Positions 11 to 3,791 of a DNA stretch of 64,000 bases are shown piece after piece. This DNA comes from an uncultured virus (IMG/VR IMGVR_UViG_3300027714_000006) (Duplodnaviria > Heunggongvirae > Uroviricota > Caudoviricetes): the IMG/VR virus record IMGVR_UViG_3300027714_000006; one strand, given 5' to 3'. The position numbers and the translations under genes are program-made. Under the pieces are notes generated by a model that ran no database searches, was not told the origin of the DNA, and saw only the letters and a program-made list of their open reading frames with translations. Each line of letters begins with the position of its first letter. The first letter of the stretch is position 1.

Positions 11-472
11 ATGGATTACAAAACAAAAGCAGATTTAACTAGAGTCATTGATGATTTCTTTACTGATAACCTTCATGAACAACAAGATGAAAACTTTAAC
101 AAAACTAAAGATTCGAGTTATGGTGGGTTAGGTAGTTATAGGAGTAATTTGTTAGAAACTAACAAATCTTATATGTTAGAAATGCAAGCCCCAGGACTAA
201 CAAAAAACGATATCACGGTAATAGTAGAAAATGGGGTTTTAGTGGTAACGTCAGTAGCTGAAGAGCATCATGACTTATATGACAGTAAAGCGGAGAAAAT
301 AACTTATTTAAGAAGAGAGTTCTATAATACAGAACTAGAGTTGGATTATAGGTTACCAGATAATGTTGATATCGACAATATTAAAGCAAAGGTAGAAAAT
401 GGTGTTTTAGGTATAGTTATACCTAAATTAGTAAAAAATAGTAATAATAAAAAACAAATAAAAATAAGTTAA
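11..472 (+). CDS. Small heat shock protein (Hsp20/alpha-crystallin family)
   Basis: [15 protein letters not shown] and [25 protein letters not shown] match the alpha-crystallin domain pattern. Confidence 0.92.
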
Positions 473-473
473 T

Positions 474-2351
474 ATGACAAAAGTAATTGGAATAGATTTA
501 GGTACTACAAACTCATGTGTTTCAGTAGTAGAAGGTGGGTCACCCACAATAATTGTTAATTCGGAGGGTAAAAGAACAACACCTTCGGTTATATCGTTTA
601 AAGATGGTGATAGAGTTGTTGGGGACCCAGCAAAAAGACAAGCAGTAACAAACCCAACAAATACAATTTACTCTGTAAAACGTTTTATAGGTAGTAAGTT
701 TGATGAGGTAAGTAAAGAAGCTAAAAAAATGGCTTATACAGTAAAAAAAGGTAGTGACGAAAATGTTAATGTGGTTGTAGATGGTAAAACATACGTTCCA
801 CAAGAAATATCAGCTGTAATATTACAGAATCTGAAAAAAACAGCAGAAGAATACCTAGGAGAAACGGTAACAGACGCGGTAATAACGGTACCAGCATACT
901 TTAATGATTCACAAAGACAAGCTACAAAAGAAGCTGGTGAAATCGCGGGACTAAACGTACTAAGAATCATCAACGAACCAACTGCTGCAGCATTAGCGTA
1001 CGGTATAAACGAGACAAAAGATAAAACTATCGCTGTTTATGATTTAGGTGGTGGTACTTTTGACATTTCTATATTGGAAATATCTGGTGGTGTGTTCGAA
1101 GTAAAATCCACAAATGGTGACACACATTTAGGTGGTGATAATTTTGATGAGGTGATTGTTGATTGGTTACTTGAAGAGTTTAAGGAAGAAAGTGGTATGA
1201 ATATAAGTGAAGACCCTTCTGCTTTACAACGTCTAAGAGAAGCGGCTGAAAAAGCAAAAGTAGAACTCTCTAACTCAACAACTACAGAACTAAACTTACC
1301 TTATTTAACTGCCGACACTACTGGACCAAAACATCTAGTTCGTACATTATCTAGAGCGAAGTTTGAGTCTATGGTTGAATTTTTAGTTAAGAAAAGTTTA
1401 ACACCTTGTAGAAAGGCAATTAAAGATGCTGGTTTAAAAGTTACTGAGATTGATGAGATAATTTTAGTTGGTGGGTCAACTAGGATACCAATCATACAAT
1501 CAGCTGTAGAAAAATTATTTAAAAAGAAACCATCTAAAGGAGTTAATCCGGATGAGGTTGTAGCGATGGGAGCTGCTATACAAGGTGGTGTGTTAGTTGG
1601 TGATGTTAAGGATGTTTTATTGTTAGATGTGACCCCACTATCACTTGGTATAGAAACTATGGGTGGTGTGATGACAACGTTAATAGAATCAAACACAACA
1701 ATACCAACGTCCAAAAGTGAAGTTTTCTCCACAGCGGTAAATAACCAACCAGCGGTAGACATTCATGTCTTACAAGGAGAAAGGTCTATGGCACCAGATA
1801 ATAGAACACTAGGTAGGTTCCAACTAACAGACATTCCACCAGCACCTAGAGGGATTCCACAGGTTGAGGTAACATTTGATATTGACGCTAATGGGATAAT
1901 AACTGTTAAAGCTAAAGATAAGGGTACCGGTAAAGAACATAATATTAAGATTGAGTCCGGTAGTAGTTTGTCTGATGAGGAAATCCAAAAAATGAAATCA
2001 GATGCTGAAGCAAACGCAGAAGAAGACAAGAAAAAGAAAGAAGATGTTAATACTTTAAATGAGGCAGATGGACTAATCTTCCAAACAGAAAAACAAATTG
2101 AAGAATTTGGTGATAAATTAGACGACTCAGATAAAACTAAATTAGAAAGTGCTTTAAAAGAACTAAAAGAGGCCGTAGAAGGTAAAAATATGGAAACTAT
2201 AACAACCTTAAAGGAAAAACTAACTAGTGATTGGAACGAAATAAGTACTAAACTTTACGAAACTACCCAAGAAGGGGAAGAGGACGTAAATCAAGAACCA
2301 CCAGTAGAAGAAAGTACTACCGATGTGGAATATGAAGAGGTTAAGGAATAA
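474..2351 (+). CDS. dnaK: Molecular chaperone DnaK (Hsp70)
   Basis: [52 protein letters not shown] and [10 protein letters not shown]; full length, 625 aa. Confidence 0.98.
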
Positions 2352-2382: not shown

Positions 2383-2631
2383 ATGAAACCAACGAAAGAA
2401 GAAATAAAAGGAACCAGAATTTTAAATGAGTACGCGTCAAGTAATATATTCGCTACAGAGTATGATACTAAGACTAGTGAACTATTAGTTACATTTAAAG
2501 GTGGTAGAAAATACCAATACCATAATGTACCACATAATTTATTTACTAAGTTTAGGATGTCAGAAAGTCAGGGTAAGTTCTTTAATAGAGAAATATCAAA
2601 AAAGTATAGATATAACGAAATTAAGAAGTAA
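2383..2631 (+). CDS. KTSC domain protein
   Basis: SSNI...YD....LLVTFKGGRKYQYHNVP.......SESQGKFFNREI is the KTSC consensus pattern. Confidence 0.88.
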   Translation: MKPTKEEIKGTRILNEYASSNIFATEYDTKTSELLVTFKGGRKYQYHNVPHNLFTKFRMSESQGKFFNREISKKYRYNEIKK

Positions 2632-2636
2632 TTTAC

Positions 2637-2667
2637 TTGTGTATTAGATTTTTTCTACGTATATTTG
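2637..2667 (+). promoter_or_regulatory. Bacteroidota-type sigma-A promoter upstream of the tRNA-like gene
   Basis: TTG at 2637 and TATATTTG (TAnnTTTG) at 2660-2667, about 30 nt before the RNA gene. Confidence 0.6.
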
Positions 2668-2698
2668 TATCTGAATTAATCAGTAAATAGTAATTTAT

Positions 2699-2770
2699 GC
2701 GGGTGTAGCTTAACGATAAAAGCGACATACATTCCAGTATGTAGACGGTGGTTCGTTCCACCCACCCGCT
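2699..2770 (+). tRNA. Non-canonical tRNA-Gly-like RNA (6-nt anticodon loop ATTCCA, 6-nt T-loop, no encoded CCA)
   Basis: Acceptor GCGGGTG/CACCCGC with U73; D stem GCTT/AAGC; anticodon stem ACATAC/GTATGT; T stem GGTGG/CCACC with loop TTCGTT. Confidence 0.8.
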
Positions 2771-2788
2771 CTAACTTAAAAAAACATT

Positions 2789-2902
2789 ATGATAGCATTT
2801 ATATTAATAGTTGTAGCTTTATTTGTATTTTGGAAACCAGTAATACACGGTTCTAAAAAAGATAGAGATACTTTTAAGTACTGGGAAGAGTATAAAAATT
2901 AA
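2789..2902 (+). CDS. Small single-pass membrane protein, 37 aa (below the ORF-track cutoff)
   Basis: MIAFILIVVALFVFWKPVIHGSKKDRDTFKYWEEYKN; A-rich leader, hydrophobic N-terminus and charged tail. Confidence 0.5.
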   Translation: MIAFILIVVALFVFWKPVIHGSKKDRDTFKYWEEYKN

Positions 2903-2979
2903 CTAAACTAATAGTTAAAAAACATATCGATAACCCCCAGAAGGGGATATTGTGTAAACAAATTAAAAATAAAACAAAC

Positions 2980-3011
2980 AAAATGGTTGCAATTGCAACC
3001 ATTTTTTATTT
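2980..3011 (+). terminator. Palindromic, possibly bidirectional intrinsic terminator
   Basis: Perfect 26-bp palindrome AAAATGGTTGCAATTGCAACCATTTT followed by a T-rich tail. Confidence 0.6.
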
Positions 3012-3025
3012 ATAAAATATTTATA
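3007..3025 (+). promoter_or_regulatory. Putative phage late promoter TATTTATA (two tandem copies)
   Basis: TATTTATA at 3007-3014 and 3018-3025; the same motif precedes at least ten other genes. Confidence 0.55.
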
Positions 3026-3029
3026 AGTT

Positions 3030-3791
3030 ATGGGAGTAAAATCATCGATACTAAAAAGCTTTAAAACTAAGGACCATTTAGCACCATCAATATGGGACGA
3101 AATGGAAGACGGGACATACACTTTGAACCCTAAAGTTAGGTCCACACTACTAAGTGTTTCTGACAGATTTCTTGACTATACCGGTATGGAAGAGTTAAGT
3201 TGTGATATAGACACACAAGAATGTGATGTGTATGATGTGACTATGACTGGTAGTTTAGCTAATTTTAATTGGAGTAAATTTTCAGACATTGACCTACACA
3301 TAATTTTAGATTTTAATGAAATAGACGAAAATAGTGAACTTGTCAGAAATTACTTAAATAGTAAAAAAACCATATGGAATAGTACCCACGATATTACTAT
3401 AGACGGTTATGAGGTAGAAATATACTCACAAGACTATAGAGAAGTACACCATTCTAGTGGTGTGTACTCGGTACTATACAATAAATGGATAGTTGAACCC
3501 TCCTACCAACACGTAACCATAGATGATAAAAAGTTAGATGAGAAAGCAACTAACTGGGTAGACGCTATAGACAGGTTAGTGGAAAGGTCTAAGAATCTTA
3601 AACCAGAAAAAACCCTAAAAGAAATTGAAGACATTAAAGCTAAATTAAAGAAATACAGAAGCTGTGGATTAGAGTCTGGTGGTGAATATTCTTATGAGAA
3701 TTTGGTCTTCAAAGTACTAAGAAGAAACGGGTATATTAAAAAATTAATTGATTTAAAGAATAAACTTATAGATAACATATTAACTATATAA
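3030..3791 (+). CDS. Pol-beta superfamily nucleotidyltransferase
   Basis: TGSLANFNWSKFSDIDLHI (GS...DxD motif) and a third acidic strand EVEIY. Confidence 0.8.
   Translation: MGVKSSILKSFKTKDHLAPSIWDEMEDGTYTLNPKVRSTLLSVSDRFLDYTGMEELSCDIDTQECDVYDVTMTGSLANFNWSKFSDIDLHIILDFNEIDENSELVRNYLNSKKTIWNSTHDITIDGYEVEIYSQDYREVHHSSGVYSVLYNKWIVEPSYQHVTIDDKKLDEKATNWVDAIDRLVERSKNLKPEKTLKEIEDIKAKLKKYRSCGLESGGEYSYENLVFKVLRRNGYIKKLIDLKNKLIDNILTI

What the first reader, a model, noticed from the sequence alone, without database searches (positions are those of the whole stretch)
2699..2773. tRNA-Gly-like RNA that looks chargeable but unable to translate
Seen: all four stems pair perfectly and glycine identity elements are kept (G1-C72, C2-G71, G3-C70, U73, TCC in the loop). 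However, the anticodon loop is 6 nt (ATTCCA, or 8 nt if the last pair opens), the T-loop is 6 nt without A58, the D-loop lacks GG, and the 3' end reads CTA. It has its own promoter-like element. Perfect stems with systematically altered loops argue against random decay. Known: staphylococcal non-proteinogenic tRNA-Gly species supply glycine to Fem transferases. I also recall, but have not verified, reports of glycyl-tRNA as the donor for Mom-type adenine modification in phages. Inference: a dedicated glycine carrier for DNA, glycan or protein modification, or a decoy for anticodon nucleases. No partner transferase is visible in this window.
Basis: partly seen in the sequence, partly recalled or inferred. 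Interest (0 to 1): 0.72.

Follow-up and report, generated by a model that had tools for sequence, protein, structure and literature searches.

The report
Conserved odd glycine tRNA look-alike
A large marine phage carries a conserved gene for a glycine-tRNA look-alike whose anticodon loop is one base too long and whose "elbow" has been rebuilt, so it probably can be loaded with glycine but is unlikely to work as a normal tRNA in protein synthesis.

Summary
Window 2699-2770 (+) folds into a perfect cloverleaf and scores 48.4 bits on Rfam tRNA. Its anticodon loop is 8 nt (CAUUCCAG, or 6 nt if C-G closes), its T loop is 6 nt, and its D loop lacks GG. It is the only tRNA-model hit in the 297.6-kb T4-like phage genome, whose host is probably a Bacteroidota member.

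It is neither an assembly error nor a dying gene. Pattern scans gave 43 distinct variants in marine viral and metagenome contigs and none in 185,579 prokaryote species genomes. Across all of them:
- the acceptor stem, U73, the D stem and the anticodon loop are invariant;
- D loops run from 5 to 9 nt;
- T loops are 6 nt (35 of 42 parsed) or 8 nt (7 of 42), never 7.

A canonical tRNA-Arg(UCU) next to it in 26 loci evolves the opposite way, with fixed loops and covarying stems.

Best reading (about 0.4): a chargeable tRNA-Gly mimic that works off the ribosome, as a glycine carrier or as a decoy. No partner was found: Mom, FemAB, synthetase and RNA-repair profiles all gave nothing. The main rival (about 0.3) is an odd but working tRNA-Gly(UCC). 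I scored it as a new variant of a known kind. Expression, processing and charging are untested.

The parts
2660..2667 (+). TATATTTG, a possible Bacteroidota-type -7 promoter element about 30 nt upstream of G1. A TTG lies about 21 nt further up, at 2636-2638.
   Evidence: Read. Conserved in L003/L004, where it precedes an inserted 55-aa ORF. The consensus TAnnTTTG is recalled, not tested. The sigma-70 scan finds nothing at this position.
2699..2770 (+). tRNA-Gly(UCC)-derived RNA, positions 1-73 (72 nt). Acceptor stem 2699-2705 with 2763-2769. D stem 2708-2711 with 2720-2723. Anticodon stem 2725-2730 with 2737-2742. T stem 2747-2751 with 2758-2762. U73 at 2770.
   Evidence: Rfam RF00005 48.4 bits. 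Fold z -5.13. Only tRNA-model hit in the genome. 43 variants.
2712..2719 (+). D loop AACGAUAA, 8 nt, no G18G19. Its first five bases are complementary to UCGUU of the T loop.
   Evidence: Among the 42 of 43 variants the pattern parsed, D loops are 5, 6, 8 or 9 nt in 13 forms.
2730..2737 (+). Anticodon loop CAUUCCAG: 8 nt, or 6 nt if C2730-G2737 pair. UCC is at 2733-2735. Compared with the canonical loop CUUCCAG it has one extra A, at 2731.
   Evidence: The cmscan alignment shows one insert. The loop is invariant in family members found with patterns that did not specify it (and 25/26).
2752..2757 (+). T loop UUCGUU, 6 nt, no A58.
   Evidence: In the family the T loop is 6 nt in 35 and 8 nt in 7 of 42 parsed variants, never 7.
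2771..2774 (+). Trailer CUAA in place of CCA.
   Evidence: UCUAA follows the acceptor stem in 41 of 43 distinct variants, while the sequence beyond it diverges.
2789..2902 (+). 37-aa ORF with a hydrophobic N-terminal half, starting 18 nt after the trailer. Probably co-transcribed with the RNA.
   Evidence: ORF list. Conserved in L003/L004. No family match above threshold.
2980..3005 (.). Two-way terminator hairpin (11 pairs) with T runs. It ends the unit promoter - RNA - small ORF.
   Evidence: 2 terminator-like sites against 0.3 +/- 0.5 in shuffles. Conserved in L003/L004.
2383..2631 (+). Upstream neighbour: 82-aa KTSC-domain protein. The domain is named after the C-terminus of some lysyl-tRNA synthetases.
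   Evidence: PF13619, E 2.5e-18. It is a neighbour only in the window-type context.
3030..3791 (+). Downstream neighbour, beyond the terminator: 253-aa Pol-beta-type nucleotidyltransferase with no specific assignment.
   Evidence: PF01909 E 8e-4 and phrog_36119 E 1e-41. AF2 pLDDT 81.9. Foldseek gives only weak matches, best E 7e-3 and TM <= 0.27, to CD-NTases, ANT/LinB and CCA-adding enzyme.

Best explanation
This is a real, selected gene for an RNA that descends from a phage tRNA-Gly(UCC). It is specific to a lineage of large marine T4-like phages, probably of Flavobacteriia.

In the window it lies in a short transcription unit: promoter-like motif, RNA, 37-aa ORF, terminator. In most relatives it lies between ORFs of a longer transcript.

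I infer the following steps:
1. RNase P and RNase Z cut it out of the transcript.
2. It receives CCA.
3. The host GlyRS loads it with glycine, because every nucleotide of the bacterial glycine identity set is invariant.

Its anticodon loop carries an extra A 5' of U33. Its elbow is rebuilt: a 6- or 8-nt T loop, usually no G18G19, G53-C61 often A-U, and D and T loops complementary to each other. I therefore think it is not an ordinary elongator tRNA. It more likely works off the ribosome, either as a private glycyl carrier for an unrecognised transferase or as a decoy for a host factor that reads the acceptor stem and anticodon of tRNA-Gly.

Shown here: the structure, the family, the pattern of selection, and the absence of known partners. 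Inferred: processing, charging, exclusion from translation, and the partner.
For: 1. Family. There are 43 distinct full-length variants.
- They came from viral contigs and 83 metagenome stretches.
- There were 0 hits in genome contigs and 0 in 50,697 GenBank phage records.

2. Invariance.
- 52 of 72 positions are invariant.
- These include all 7 acceptor pairs (one G.U in one variant), U73, 3 of 4 D-stem pairs, and C35/C36 with the whole loop CAUUCCAG.
- The loop stayed invariant under patterns that left it free.

3. Elbow.
- T loops are 6 nt in 35 and 8 nt in 7 of 42 parsed variants, in 14 forms.
- D loops are 5-9 nt in 13 forms.
- Pair 53-61 is G-C in 25 and A-U in 17 variants.

4. Internal control. 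The same 26 loci hold a canonical tRNA-Arg(UCU) 15 nt to 1.3 kb upstream.
- In the tRNA-Arg, 19 of 42 stem positions vary and 9 of 21 pairs show compensatory change. All 252 cells pair, and its D loop (with GG) and 7-nt T loop are almost fixed.
- In the Gly-like RNA only 7 of 44 stem positions vary. Fisher p = 0.0045.

5. D/T-loop complementarity.
- The longest D/T-loop duplex averages 2.98 (Watson-Crick only), against 2.57 when loops are re-paired at random. 0 of 5000 permutations reach the observed value.
- The window has 5 contiguous pairs, AACGA with UCGUU. AAUGAA with UUCAUU gives 6.
- Position 16-57 is U.G in 20, U-A in 7 and C-G in 2 variants, and C with A never occurs.

6. It is the only tRNA-model hit in the 93%-complete genome.

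7. Precedent. Staphylococcal non-proteogenic tRNA-Gly is charged by GlyRS but binds EF-Tu and the ribosome poorly (PMC7826273, passages). Mom uses Gly-tRNAGly (PMC13219725).
Against: - No expression, end-mapping or charging data. No RNA run holds the stretch.
- No tRNA-dependent transferase or other partner was found.
- No constant gene neighbour. There are three different contexts.
- About 60% of the ORFs have no Pfam match, so a partner could be hidden. This makes the carrier idea hard to refute by annotation.
- An 8-nt anticodon loop does not by itself exclude in-frame decoding. I recall yeast mitochondrial tRNA-Thr1 as an example.
- GGA plus GGG make up 41% of 6518 glycine codons, so a decoding tRNA-Gly(UCC) would be useful to the phage.
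- The D/T-loop complementarity suggests that an L-shape is still maintained, which also fits a working tRNA.
- The permutation test ignores the relatedness of the variants.
- Patterns fixed part of the sequence in each scan. More divergent members, which might have other loops, could have been missed.
Confidence: 0.4

Rival explanations
1. It is still a working elongator tRNA-Gly(UCC) for GGA/GGG. It is structurally eccentric, perhaps because the changed anticodon loop makes it resistant to a host anticodon nuclease, as reported for other phage tRNAs.
For: - Rfam tRNA score above threshold.
- It sits beside a canonical tRNA-Arg(UCU) in 26 of 83 loci, like a small phage tRNA cluster.
- U33, UCC and A37 are kept.
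- GGA+GGG are 41% of glycine codons.
- D/T-loop complementarity may keep the L-shape.
- Phage tRNAs with anticodon-loop changes that escape host nucleases are described (PMC10264068, PMC11464382, PMC11555353; titles and abstract starts seen).
Against: - The T loop is never 7 nt in 42 parsed variants, G18G19 is mostly absent, and G53-C61 is replaced in 17 of 43.
- The extra base sits next to U33.
- The selection regime is opposite to that of the neighbouring tRNA-Arg in the same genomes.
- From the abstract starts I saw, the published nuclease-resistant phage tRNAs are described as anticodon-loop mutations. I did not read their full texts, so I cannot say whether any changes loop length.
Confidence: 0.3
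2. It is the RNA partner (Y-RNA-like) or a client of the phage's Ro60-like protein. The small basic MAKLRK protein encoded just downstream in most relatives may take part.
For: - The DUF2828+DUF7788 protein models as a Ro60 ring plus vWA domain. The top 12 Foldseek PDB hits are all Ro60/TROVE, best 9kop at E 2.6e-8 and TM 0.50.
- 24 of 29 loci with at least 1500 nt downstream carry this gene on the same strand. In L139 it starts about 130 nt after the RNA.
- Phage phiLo Ro60 binds Y-like RNAs encoded upstream of its gene (PMC12135203, passages).
- Bacterial Y RNAs mimic tRNA (PMC4201824, title and abstract start).
Against: - In the window's own genome the two genes lie about 200 kb apart, and nothing tRNA-like lies upstream of the Ro60-like gene.
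- Of 80 Ro60-like loci (55-100% identity) only 4 hold the RNA. All 4 are at 85-89% identity. Loci at 100%, 91% and 87% lack it.
- The RNA is a free-ended cloverleaf, not a stem-bulge-stem Y RNA.
- 11 of the 80 loci lie beside ordinary tRNA clusters, so the linkage may only reflect a tRNA region.
Confidence: 0.08
3. It is mainly an RNA-processing or stabilising element: a tRNA-shaped cut site for RNase P/Z that separates or protects the flanking mRNAs.
For: - It is embedded between ORFs. It starts 5 nt after the upstream stop codon in L012.
- An ORF starts 18 to about 60 nt downstream in the window and in 61 of 68 loci.
- Acceptor and T stems, the parts RNase P uses, are fixed.
Against: - A cut site needs shape, not an invariant anticodon loop, an invariant D stem and the whole glycine identity set.
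- Its contexts and flanking ORFs differ.
Confidence: 0.07
4. It is a +1 frameshift (four-base) decoder, like suppressor tRNAs with 8-nt anticodon loops, used for a programmed shift at GGA-N.
For: The 8-nt loop has its extra base on the 5' side. I recall that sufD and SufJ have expanded loops. No call tested this resemblance.
Against: - A crude scan of all overlapping long-ORF pairs (at least 120 codons each) gave 71 pairs, 40 of them in the +1 relation.
- Only one +1 pair lacks a nearby ATG. Its 38-nt overlap holds no glycine codon, and it has a TTG start.
- The degenerate elbow would also hamper ribosomal use.
Confidence: 0.04
5. It is a decaying tRNA-Gly pseudogene without function.
For: - Non-canonical loops.
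- A 29-41 mismatch in 30 of 43 variants.
- T-loop sequences such as CUUGGA or CUCACACU.
- ARAGORN rejects it.
Against: - 52 of 72 positions are invariant across 43 variants, while flanks and the neighbouring tRNA-Arg stems diverge.
- Compensatory G-C to A-U change at 53-61.
- It is kept in three different genomic contexts, and it persists where the tRNA-Arg is lost.
Confidence: 0.04

Closest known systems
Non-proteogenic tRNA-Gly (NP1-3) of Staphylococcus aureus and S. epidermidis
   Same: UCC anticodon. Charged by GlyRS. Altered D and T regions. Poor use by EF-Tu and the ribosome. (PMC7826273, passages read.) The phage RNA likewise keeps the glycine identity nucleotides while its elbow departs from the tRNA norm.
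   Different: As I recall, the staphylococcal RNAs keep normal loop lengths; this was not stated in the passages I read. They change UUC to UGC/UGU in the T loop and serve Fem transferases. Here the loop lengths change (8-nt anticodon loop, 6- or 8-nt T loop), UUCG is often kept, no FemAB is present, and the gene is in a phage of Gram-negative hosts. The paper states that such tRNAs were so far detected only in those two species.
Phage tRNAs with anticodon-loop changes that escape host tRNA nucleases (PMC10264068; T5 tRNA-Lys against PARIS, PMC11464382; tRNA-Tyr against retron effectors, PMC11555353)
   Same: Phage-encoded, derived from a normal tRNA, with changes centred on the anticodon loop.
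   Different: Those tRNAs are reported as replacements for cleaved host tRNAs, so they must still translate. This RNA has an expanded loop and a degenerate elbow. I saw only search listings and abstract starts.
Frameshift-suppressor tRNAs with 8-nt anticodon loops (sufD, SufJ; recalled) and yeast mitochondrial tRNA-Thr1 (recalled)
   Same: One extra nucleotide in the anticodon loop.
   Different: Those are otherwise canonical tRNAs that act on the ribosome. No candidate shift site was found here.
Bacterial and phage Y RNAs (YrlA) with Ro60
   Same: tRNA mimicry. A Ro60-like gene lies downstream in most relatives.
   Different: Y RNAs have a closed stem-bulge-stem Ro-binding module and no free acceptor end. 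The linkage here is confined to a narrow clade.
Pseudo-tRNA tRNA-Other of Bacillus cereus (PMC3399842; title and abstract start seen)
   Same: A tRNA-shaped RNA that does not function in translation yet has a phenotype.
   Different: Chromosomal and of a different tRNA type. No sequence relation was examined.

Membership tests
Canonical elongator tRNA (Rfam RF00005) | Cloverleaf with 7/4/5/5-bp stems and a score above the curated threshold | tested here: met
   48.4 bits against a gathering score of 29. All stems are paired.
Canonical elongator tRNA (Rfam RF00005) | 7-nt anticodon loop | tested here: not met
   The loop is 8 nt (CAUUCCAG), or 6 nt if C-G closes. cmscan shows one insert. The loop is invariant in 43 variants.
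Canonical elongator tRNA (Rfam RF00005) | 7-nt T loop with U54-A58 and G53-C61, and G18G19 in the D loop | tested here: not met
   The T loop is 6 nt in the window, and 6 or 8 nt in all 42 parsed variants. GG is present in only 6 of the 42 parsed D loops (AAGGAUAA 5, AAGGAUGA 1; the unparsed variant L144 also reads AAGGAUAA). Pair 53-61 is A-U in 17 of 43.
Canonical elongator tRNA (Rfam RF00005) | Mature CCA end, aminoacylation, and use by EF-Tu and the ribosome | not testable with these tools
   The gene encodes CUA, not CCA. No RNA run was available.
Substrate of bacterial GlyRS (identity set as I recall it: G1-C72, C2-G71, G3-C70, U73, C35, C36) | Presence of all identity nucleotides | tested here: met
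   All are present and invariant in 43 variants. That they suffice in this altered body is not testable here.
Staphylococcal-type non-proteogenic tRNA-Gly system | A Fem-family glycyl transferase encoded alongside | tested here: not met
   PF02388 has no match at E <= 1 in the genome. There was no FemAB hit in the Pfam scans.
Mom-type Gly-tRNA-dependent DNA modification | A Mom homologue (PF25680 / phrog_1384) in the genome | tested here: not met
   Mu Mom itself scores 2.4e-75 and 7.8e-84 on these profiles. The own genome has no match at E <= 1.
Ro60 - Y RNA ribonucleoprotein | An RNA gene next to a Ro60 gene, and a stem-bulge-stem Ro-binding module | tested here: inconclusive
   A Ro60-like gene lies downstream in 24 of 29 long loci. 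It is unlinked in this genome, and the RNA is absent from 76 of 80 Ro60-like loci. The RNA has no Y-RNA architecture. No Rfam Y RNA family matched.
+1 frameshift-suppressor tRNA | An expanded anticodon loop plus sites in the genome that need the shift | tested here: inconclusive
   The loop is expanded. A crude ORF-pair scan found no +1 junction with a glycine codon. Short ORFs were not covered.

The most novel reading that the evidence does not exclude
The RNA is a phage-encoded non-proteinogenic glycyl-tRNA, which would be the first outside staphylococci. The host GlyRS loads it. Its expanded anticodon loop and rebuilt elbow keep it off the ribosome. It could then work in one of two ways:
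- It could feed glycine to a still unrecognised phage transferase. Possible targets are DNA, the phage's large glycan pathway, or a protein.
- It could soak up a host defence factor aimed at Gly-tRNAGly. GNAT toxins that acetylate Gly-tRNAGly are known; the TacT paper is cited as reference 79 in PMC13219725.
Probability: 0.3. Interest if true: 0.85.

Novelty: new variant of a known kind. Interest (0 to 1): 0.62.

Why it matters
tRNA-shaped RNAs that carry amino acids for jobs other than translation are rare. The NAR 2020 paper read here says dedicated non-proteogenic tRNAs were so far detected only in two staphylococci.

This is a widespread marine phage family that keeps every glycine identity nucleotide. 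At the same time it gives up the 7-nt anticodon loop and the canonical elbow. That combination makes a phage-encoded, ribosome-excluded glycyl carrier or tRNA decoy directly testable.

It also gives a clean natural experiment. Two tRNA-type genes sit side by side in the same genomes under opposite selection regimes. This shows which parts of a tRNA are needed for which partner.

On the practical side, the gene is missed by ARAGORN and by a routine Rfam scan. The one paper I found on what looks like this phage lineage does not mention it in the passages I read (PMC12619734).

Tried and rejected
Expression and reads
- No RNA holder was listed for window 2383-3030, so expression could not be examined. 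The four runs laid are contigs of unknown kind.

Similarity searches
- The 1-kb region and the 76-nt RNA gave no match in GenBank phages.
- The family pattern gave nothing in genome contigs.
- The covariance model R1 gave no hit in one Mucilaginibacter genome.
- BLAST of the RNA against 121 Bacteroidia genomes gave only chance-level matches of 25 nt or less, best E 0.02. It is therefore not a copy of a host tRNA-Gly in those searched.
- attP or integration-site remnant: rejected, because no integrase appears in the scans and the cloverleaf is complete.

Partner search
- The Pfam scan covered 264 of 267 ORFs of at least 70 aa. The three not scanned are 770, 1144 and 4512 aa.
- It found no FemAB, L/F-transferase, GNAT, cyclodipeptide synthase, synthetase, CCA-adding enzyme, RNA ligase, RtcB or reverse transcriptase.
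- Mom and FemAB six-frame searches were empty.
- NCBIfam gave nothing for the neighbours.

Neighbouring nucleotidyltransferase
- The fold search was unspecific.
- The atlas returned only viral NTP_transf_2 clusters.

Ro60 idea
- Followed up and downgraded.

Frameshift idea
- No site found.

Earlier notes of this scan
- Nothing for this genome or this sequence.

Literature
- Searches found no description of this RNA.

I recomputed the statistic from stored files.
Full report
**1. What is there**

Window 2699-2770 (+) reads GCGGGUG UA GCUU AACGAUAA AAGC G ACAUAC AUUCCA GUAUGU AGAC GGUGG UUCGUU CCACC CACCCGC U, followed by CUAA.

- It folds alone into a cloverleaf with 22 Watson-Crick pairs. MFE is -29.8 kcal/mol, z is -5.13, and 0 of 200 shuffles fold as well.
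- Rfam's tRNA model gives 48.4 bits against a threshold of 29. Its alignment has one inserted base in the anticodon loop and one missing base in the T loop.
- ARAGORN finds no tRNA in the window or the genome at default settings.
- The routine whole-window Rfam scan also missed it.

**2. Where it lies**

- The window is part of a 297,623-bp virus record estimated 93% complete. This RNA is the record's only match to the tRNA model.
- The genome is T4-like, with a Gp23 capsid protein, Gp20 portal, gp25, gp32 and a family B polymerase.
- It carries Bacteroidota signatures: two type IX secretion sorting domains and a TonB-dependent receptor.
- Its gene set includes DnaK, DnaJ, Hsp20, ClpB, glutamine synthetase, a sigma factor, PhoH and a KTSC protein.
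- This matches the recently described 'moraphages', large aquatic phages predicted to infect Flavobacteriia (PMC12619734, passages). That match is my inference from gene content. The passages I read do not mention a tRNA-like gene.
- Locally the order is Hsp20, Hsp70, KTSC protein, the RNA, a 37-aa hydrophobic ORF, a strong two-way terminator, then a Pol-beta-type nucleotidyltransferase.
- The sigma-70 scan finds no promoter directly upstream. TATATTTG at 2660-2667 fits the Bacteroidota -7 motif as I recall it.

**3. It is a family**

- Three independent pattern scans of viral contigs each fixed a different part of the RNA:
  - T arm plus 3' acceptor strand (8 of 16 stretches are family members);
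  - anticodon arm (19 of 42);
  - 5' acceptor strand plus D stem (19 of 41).
- One metagenome scan gave 83 stretches.
- Together they yield 43 distinct full-length variants. Some contigs occur in both collections.
- Every part left free in one scan came back unchanged. 52 of 72 positions are invariant.
- The family pattern is absent from one genome each of 185,579 prokaryote species.
- The RNA finds nothing in 50,697 GenBank phage records.
- Contigs from four further public runs cover the RNA with no indel in the anticodon or T loop.

The odd loop lengths are therefore genuine and conserved.

**4. How it evolves**

Invariant features:
- the acceptor stem GCGGGUG/CACCCGC, with one G.U in one variant;
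- U8, A9, G26 and U73;
- three of four D-stem pairs;
- the lower three anticodon-stem pairs;
- the loop CAUUCCAG;
- four of five T-stem pairs.

Variable features:
- the D loop (13 forms, 5-9 nt);
- the T loop (14 forms; 6 nt in 35 and 8 nt in 7 of 42 parsed, never 7);
- pair 53-61, which switches between G-C (25) and A-U (17);
- position 29-41, which is unpaired in 30 of 43 variants and otherwise A-U, G-C, C-G or G.U.

The trailer UCUAA is kept in 41 of 43 variants, although the sequence beyond it diverges.

A subgroup has D loop AAGGAUAA and T loop UUCGAC or UUCGAA. It is closest to a normal tRNA and may be near the ancestral state. The 8-nt anticodon loop is common to all variants.

**5. An internal control**

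In 26 of 83 non-redundant loci a canonical tRNA-Arg(UCU) lies 15 nt to 1.3 kb upstream.

| Feature, same 26 loci | tRNA-Arg(UCU) | Gly-like RNA |
|---|---|---|
| Stem positions that vary | 19 of 42 | 7 of 44 |
| Pairs with compensatory change | 9 of 21 (all 252 cells paired) | not counted for these 26 loci; 2 of 22 across all 43 variants |
| D loop | nearly fixed, keeps GG | 7 forms |
| T loop | nearly fixed, 7 nt | 9 forms |

The difference in stem variation has Fisher p = 0.0045.

So there was enough time for change, and a translating tRNA in these phages looks normal. The Gly-like RNA is under a different, sequence-specific constraint on its helices and anticodon loop, and a relaxed or altered constraint on its elbow.

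**6. A possible replacement elbow**

- In the window, the first five D-loop bases (AACGA) are complementary to UCGUU of the T loop.
- AAUGA pairs with UCAUU, and AAUGAA with UUCAUU (six pairs).
- Observed D/T-loop pairings are more complementary than re-paired ones, with 0 of 5000 permutations reaching the observed mean.
- Position 16-57 is U.G in 20, U-A in 7 and C-G in 2 variants, and never C with A.
- This suggests a Watson-Crick loop-loop contact in place of the G18-U55 / G19-C56 contact.
- The evidence is suggestive only. The changes are one-sided, 14 of 43 variants do not fit, and the permutation ignores relatedness.

**7. What it is not linked to**

Gene neighbours differ. There are three contexts.

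| Context | Gene order | Loci |
|---|---|---|
| Majority | RNA, a 90-aa basic ORF (MAKLRK...), then a DUF2828+DUF7788 gene | basic ORF in 61 of 68 loci with enough sequence; DUF2828 gene in 24 of 29 |
| Window type | Hsp70, KTSC, RNA, small ORF, nucleotidyltransferase | window, L051, L114, L145, L182 |
| Third | a different, unrelated gene set | L142 |

(Counts.)

I modelled the DUF2828 protein (pLDDT 75.8). Its top 12 PDB matches are all Ro60/TROVE proteins. That raised a Y-RNA-like reading, but three results weaken it:
- In this genome the Ro60-like gene is about 200 kb away, with nothing tRNA-like upstream.
- Only 4 of 80 Ro60-like loci hold the RNA.
- 11 of the 80 lie beside ordinary tRNA clusters.

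The linkage looks like a remnant of a tRNA region.

Searches for partners:
- No Mom, FemAB or other aminoacyl-tRNA-using enzyme was found.
- No synthetase, CCA-adding enzyme or RNA-repair enzyme was found.
- The adjacent nucleotidyltransferase has only weak, unspecific fold matches.
- No +1 frameshift site with a glycine codon turned up.
- No look-alike exists in 121 Bacteroidia genomes.
- Cellular tRNA-Gly genes sharing the 5' half are canonical. They occur in Alphaproteobacteria, Planctomycetota, Clostridia and others, not in Flavobacteriia.

**8. Interpretation**

The conserved parts are the ones GlyRS reads, by the identity set as I recall it: G1-C72, C2-G71, G3-C70, U73, C35 and C36. The tRNA core nucleotides U8, A14, A21 and G26 are also kept.

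The parts that drift are the ones the ribosome, the T-loop modification enzymes and the standard elbow need.

The closest precedent is the staphylococcal non-proteogenic tRNA-Gly. It is charged by GlyRS but binds EF-Tu and ribosomes poorly (PMC7826273). The recent demonstration that Mu Mom takes glycine from Gly-tRNAGly shows that phages do exploit this donor (PMC13219725).

I therefore favour a chargeable tRNA mimic that works off the ribosome, either as a carrier or as a decoy, at about 0.4. The odd-but-working tRNA-Gly(UCC) is the main rival at about 0.3. The remaining readings are the Ro60 partner, a processing element, a frameshifter and a pseudogene.

Transcription, processing, CCA addition, charging and exclusion from translation are all inferred. 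None was shown here.

**9. Novelty**

Four literature searches found no description of this RNA. The gene is invisible to standard tRNA finders.

It is a new variant of a known kind, namely tRNA-derived non-canonical RNAs. It combines a one-base-expanded invariant anticodon loop, T loops of 6 or 8 but never 7 nt, frozen helices, and restriction to one marine phage lineage.

Earlier notes of this scan describe other tRNA-derived, probably non-translating RNAs in bacteria (e1-4283467, e1-2134717). They are different families, and I did not test them.

Noticed in passing
G000:C1:48486-49916 (- strand; L189:12486-13916), outside the window: The DUF2828+DUF7788 protein (477 aa) models as a Ro60-like ring plus vWA domain. 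The top 12 PDB fold matches are all Ro60/TROVE. The family is very large (7997 proteins with E <= 1e-5 among the 8000 candidates scored). 11 of 80 viral loci have canonical tRNA genes within 2.5 kb.
   Followed up: partly
window 2699-2770: The whole-window Rfam scan at gathering threshold returned nothing, although the same model scores 48.4 bits (threshold 29) when 501 bases are searched. The speed filters lose this RNA.
   Followed up: yes
L073:121-199, L071:57-135 (-), L095:57-135 (-): Three other phage tRNA-Gly(UCC)-like genes share the same 5' half but have degenerate T arms. L073 has a 7-nt loop CAUCCAG with A at position 33 and the same UCUAA trailer, and its 210-kb record has no tRNA-model hit at all. 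They may be remote relatives or independent cases.
   Followed up: partly
L294, L304, L306 (Micrococcaceae genome bins): tRNA-Gly(UCC)-like genes with D loop AAUUUGUA (no GG), anticodon loop AUUCCAU and T loop UUCAUUA/UUCAUUC. Two tandem copies in L304.
   Followed up: no
L003/L004:3517-3684: Relatives of the window type carry a 168-nt insertion with a 55-aa ORF between the promoter-like motif and the RNA, so there the RNA sits in the middle of a small operon.
   Followed up: partly
window 11-2351; G000 76863-77840; G000 254681-256726: The phage encodes a chaperone set: Hsp20, Hsp70/DnaK (E 1.8e-258), DnaJ and ClpB, plus ClpP.
   Followed up: no
G000:C1:32102-34504 (L188:14102-16504, -): An 801-aa TonB-dependent receptor with plug and CarboxypepD_reg domains is encoded in the phage genome. 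Two proteins carry type IX secretion sorting domains (L189:3358-7320; L203:2043-2570).
   Followed up: no
G000:C1:92383-93739 (-): A calcineurin-like phosphoesterase ORF is followed, in the +1 frame with a 38-nt overlap, by a 198-codon open frame. Its first ATG lies 289 nt beyond the upstream stop. A TTG near its start probably explains it.
   Followed up: partly
G000 about 217.6-233.7 kb (L199:1669-17729): A long sugar-nucleotide and glycan cluster. It includes three GDP-mannose-dehydratase-type enzymes, DegT aminotransferases, at least six glycosyltransferases, a sulfotransferase and an asparagine-synthase-like amidotransferase.
   Followed up: no
majority-type loci, e.g. L012:1606-1887; G000 266963-267232: A conserved 90-aa, very basic ORF (MAKLRK...) starts 20-60 nt after the RNA in 61 of 68 loci. 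It has no Pfam or NCBIfam match. In the window's genome it lies 15 kb away from the RNA.
   Followed up: partly
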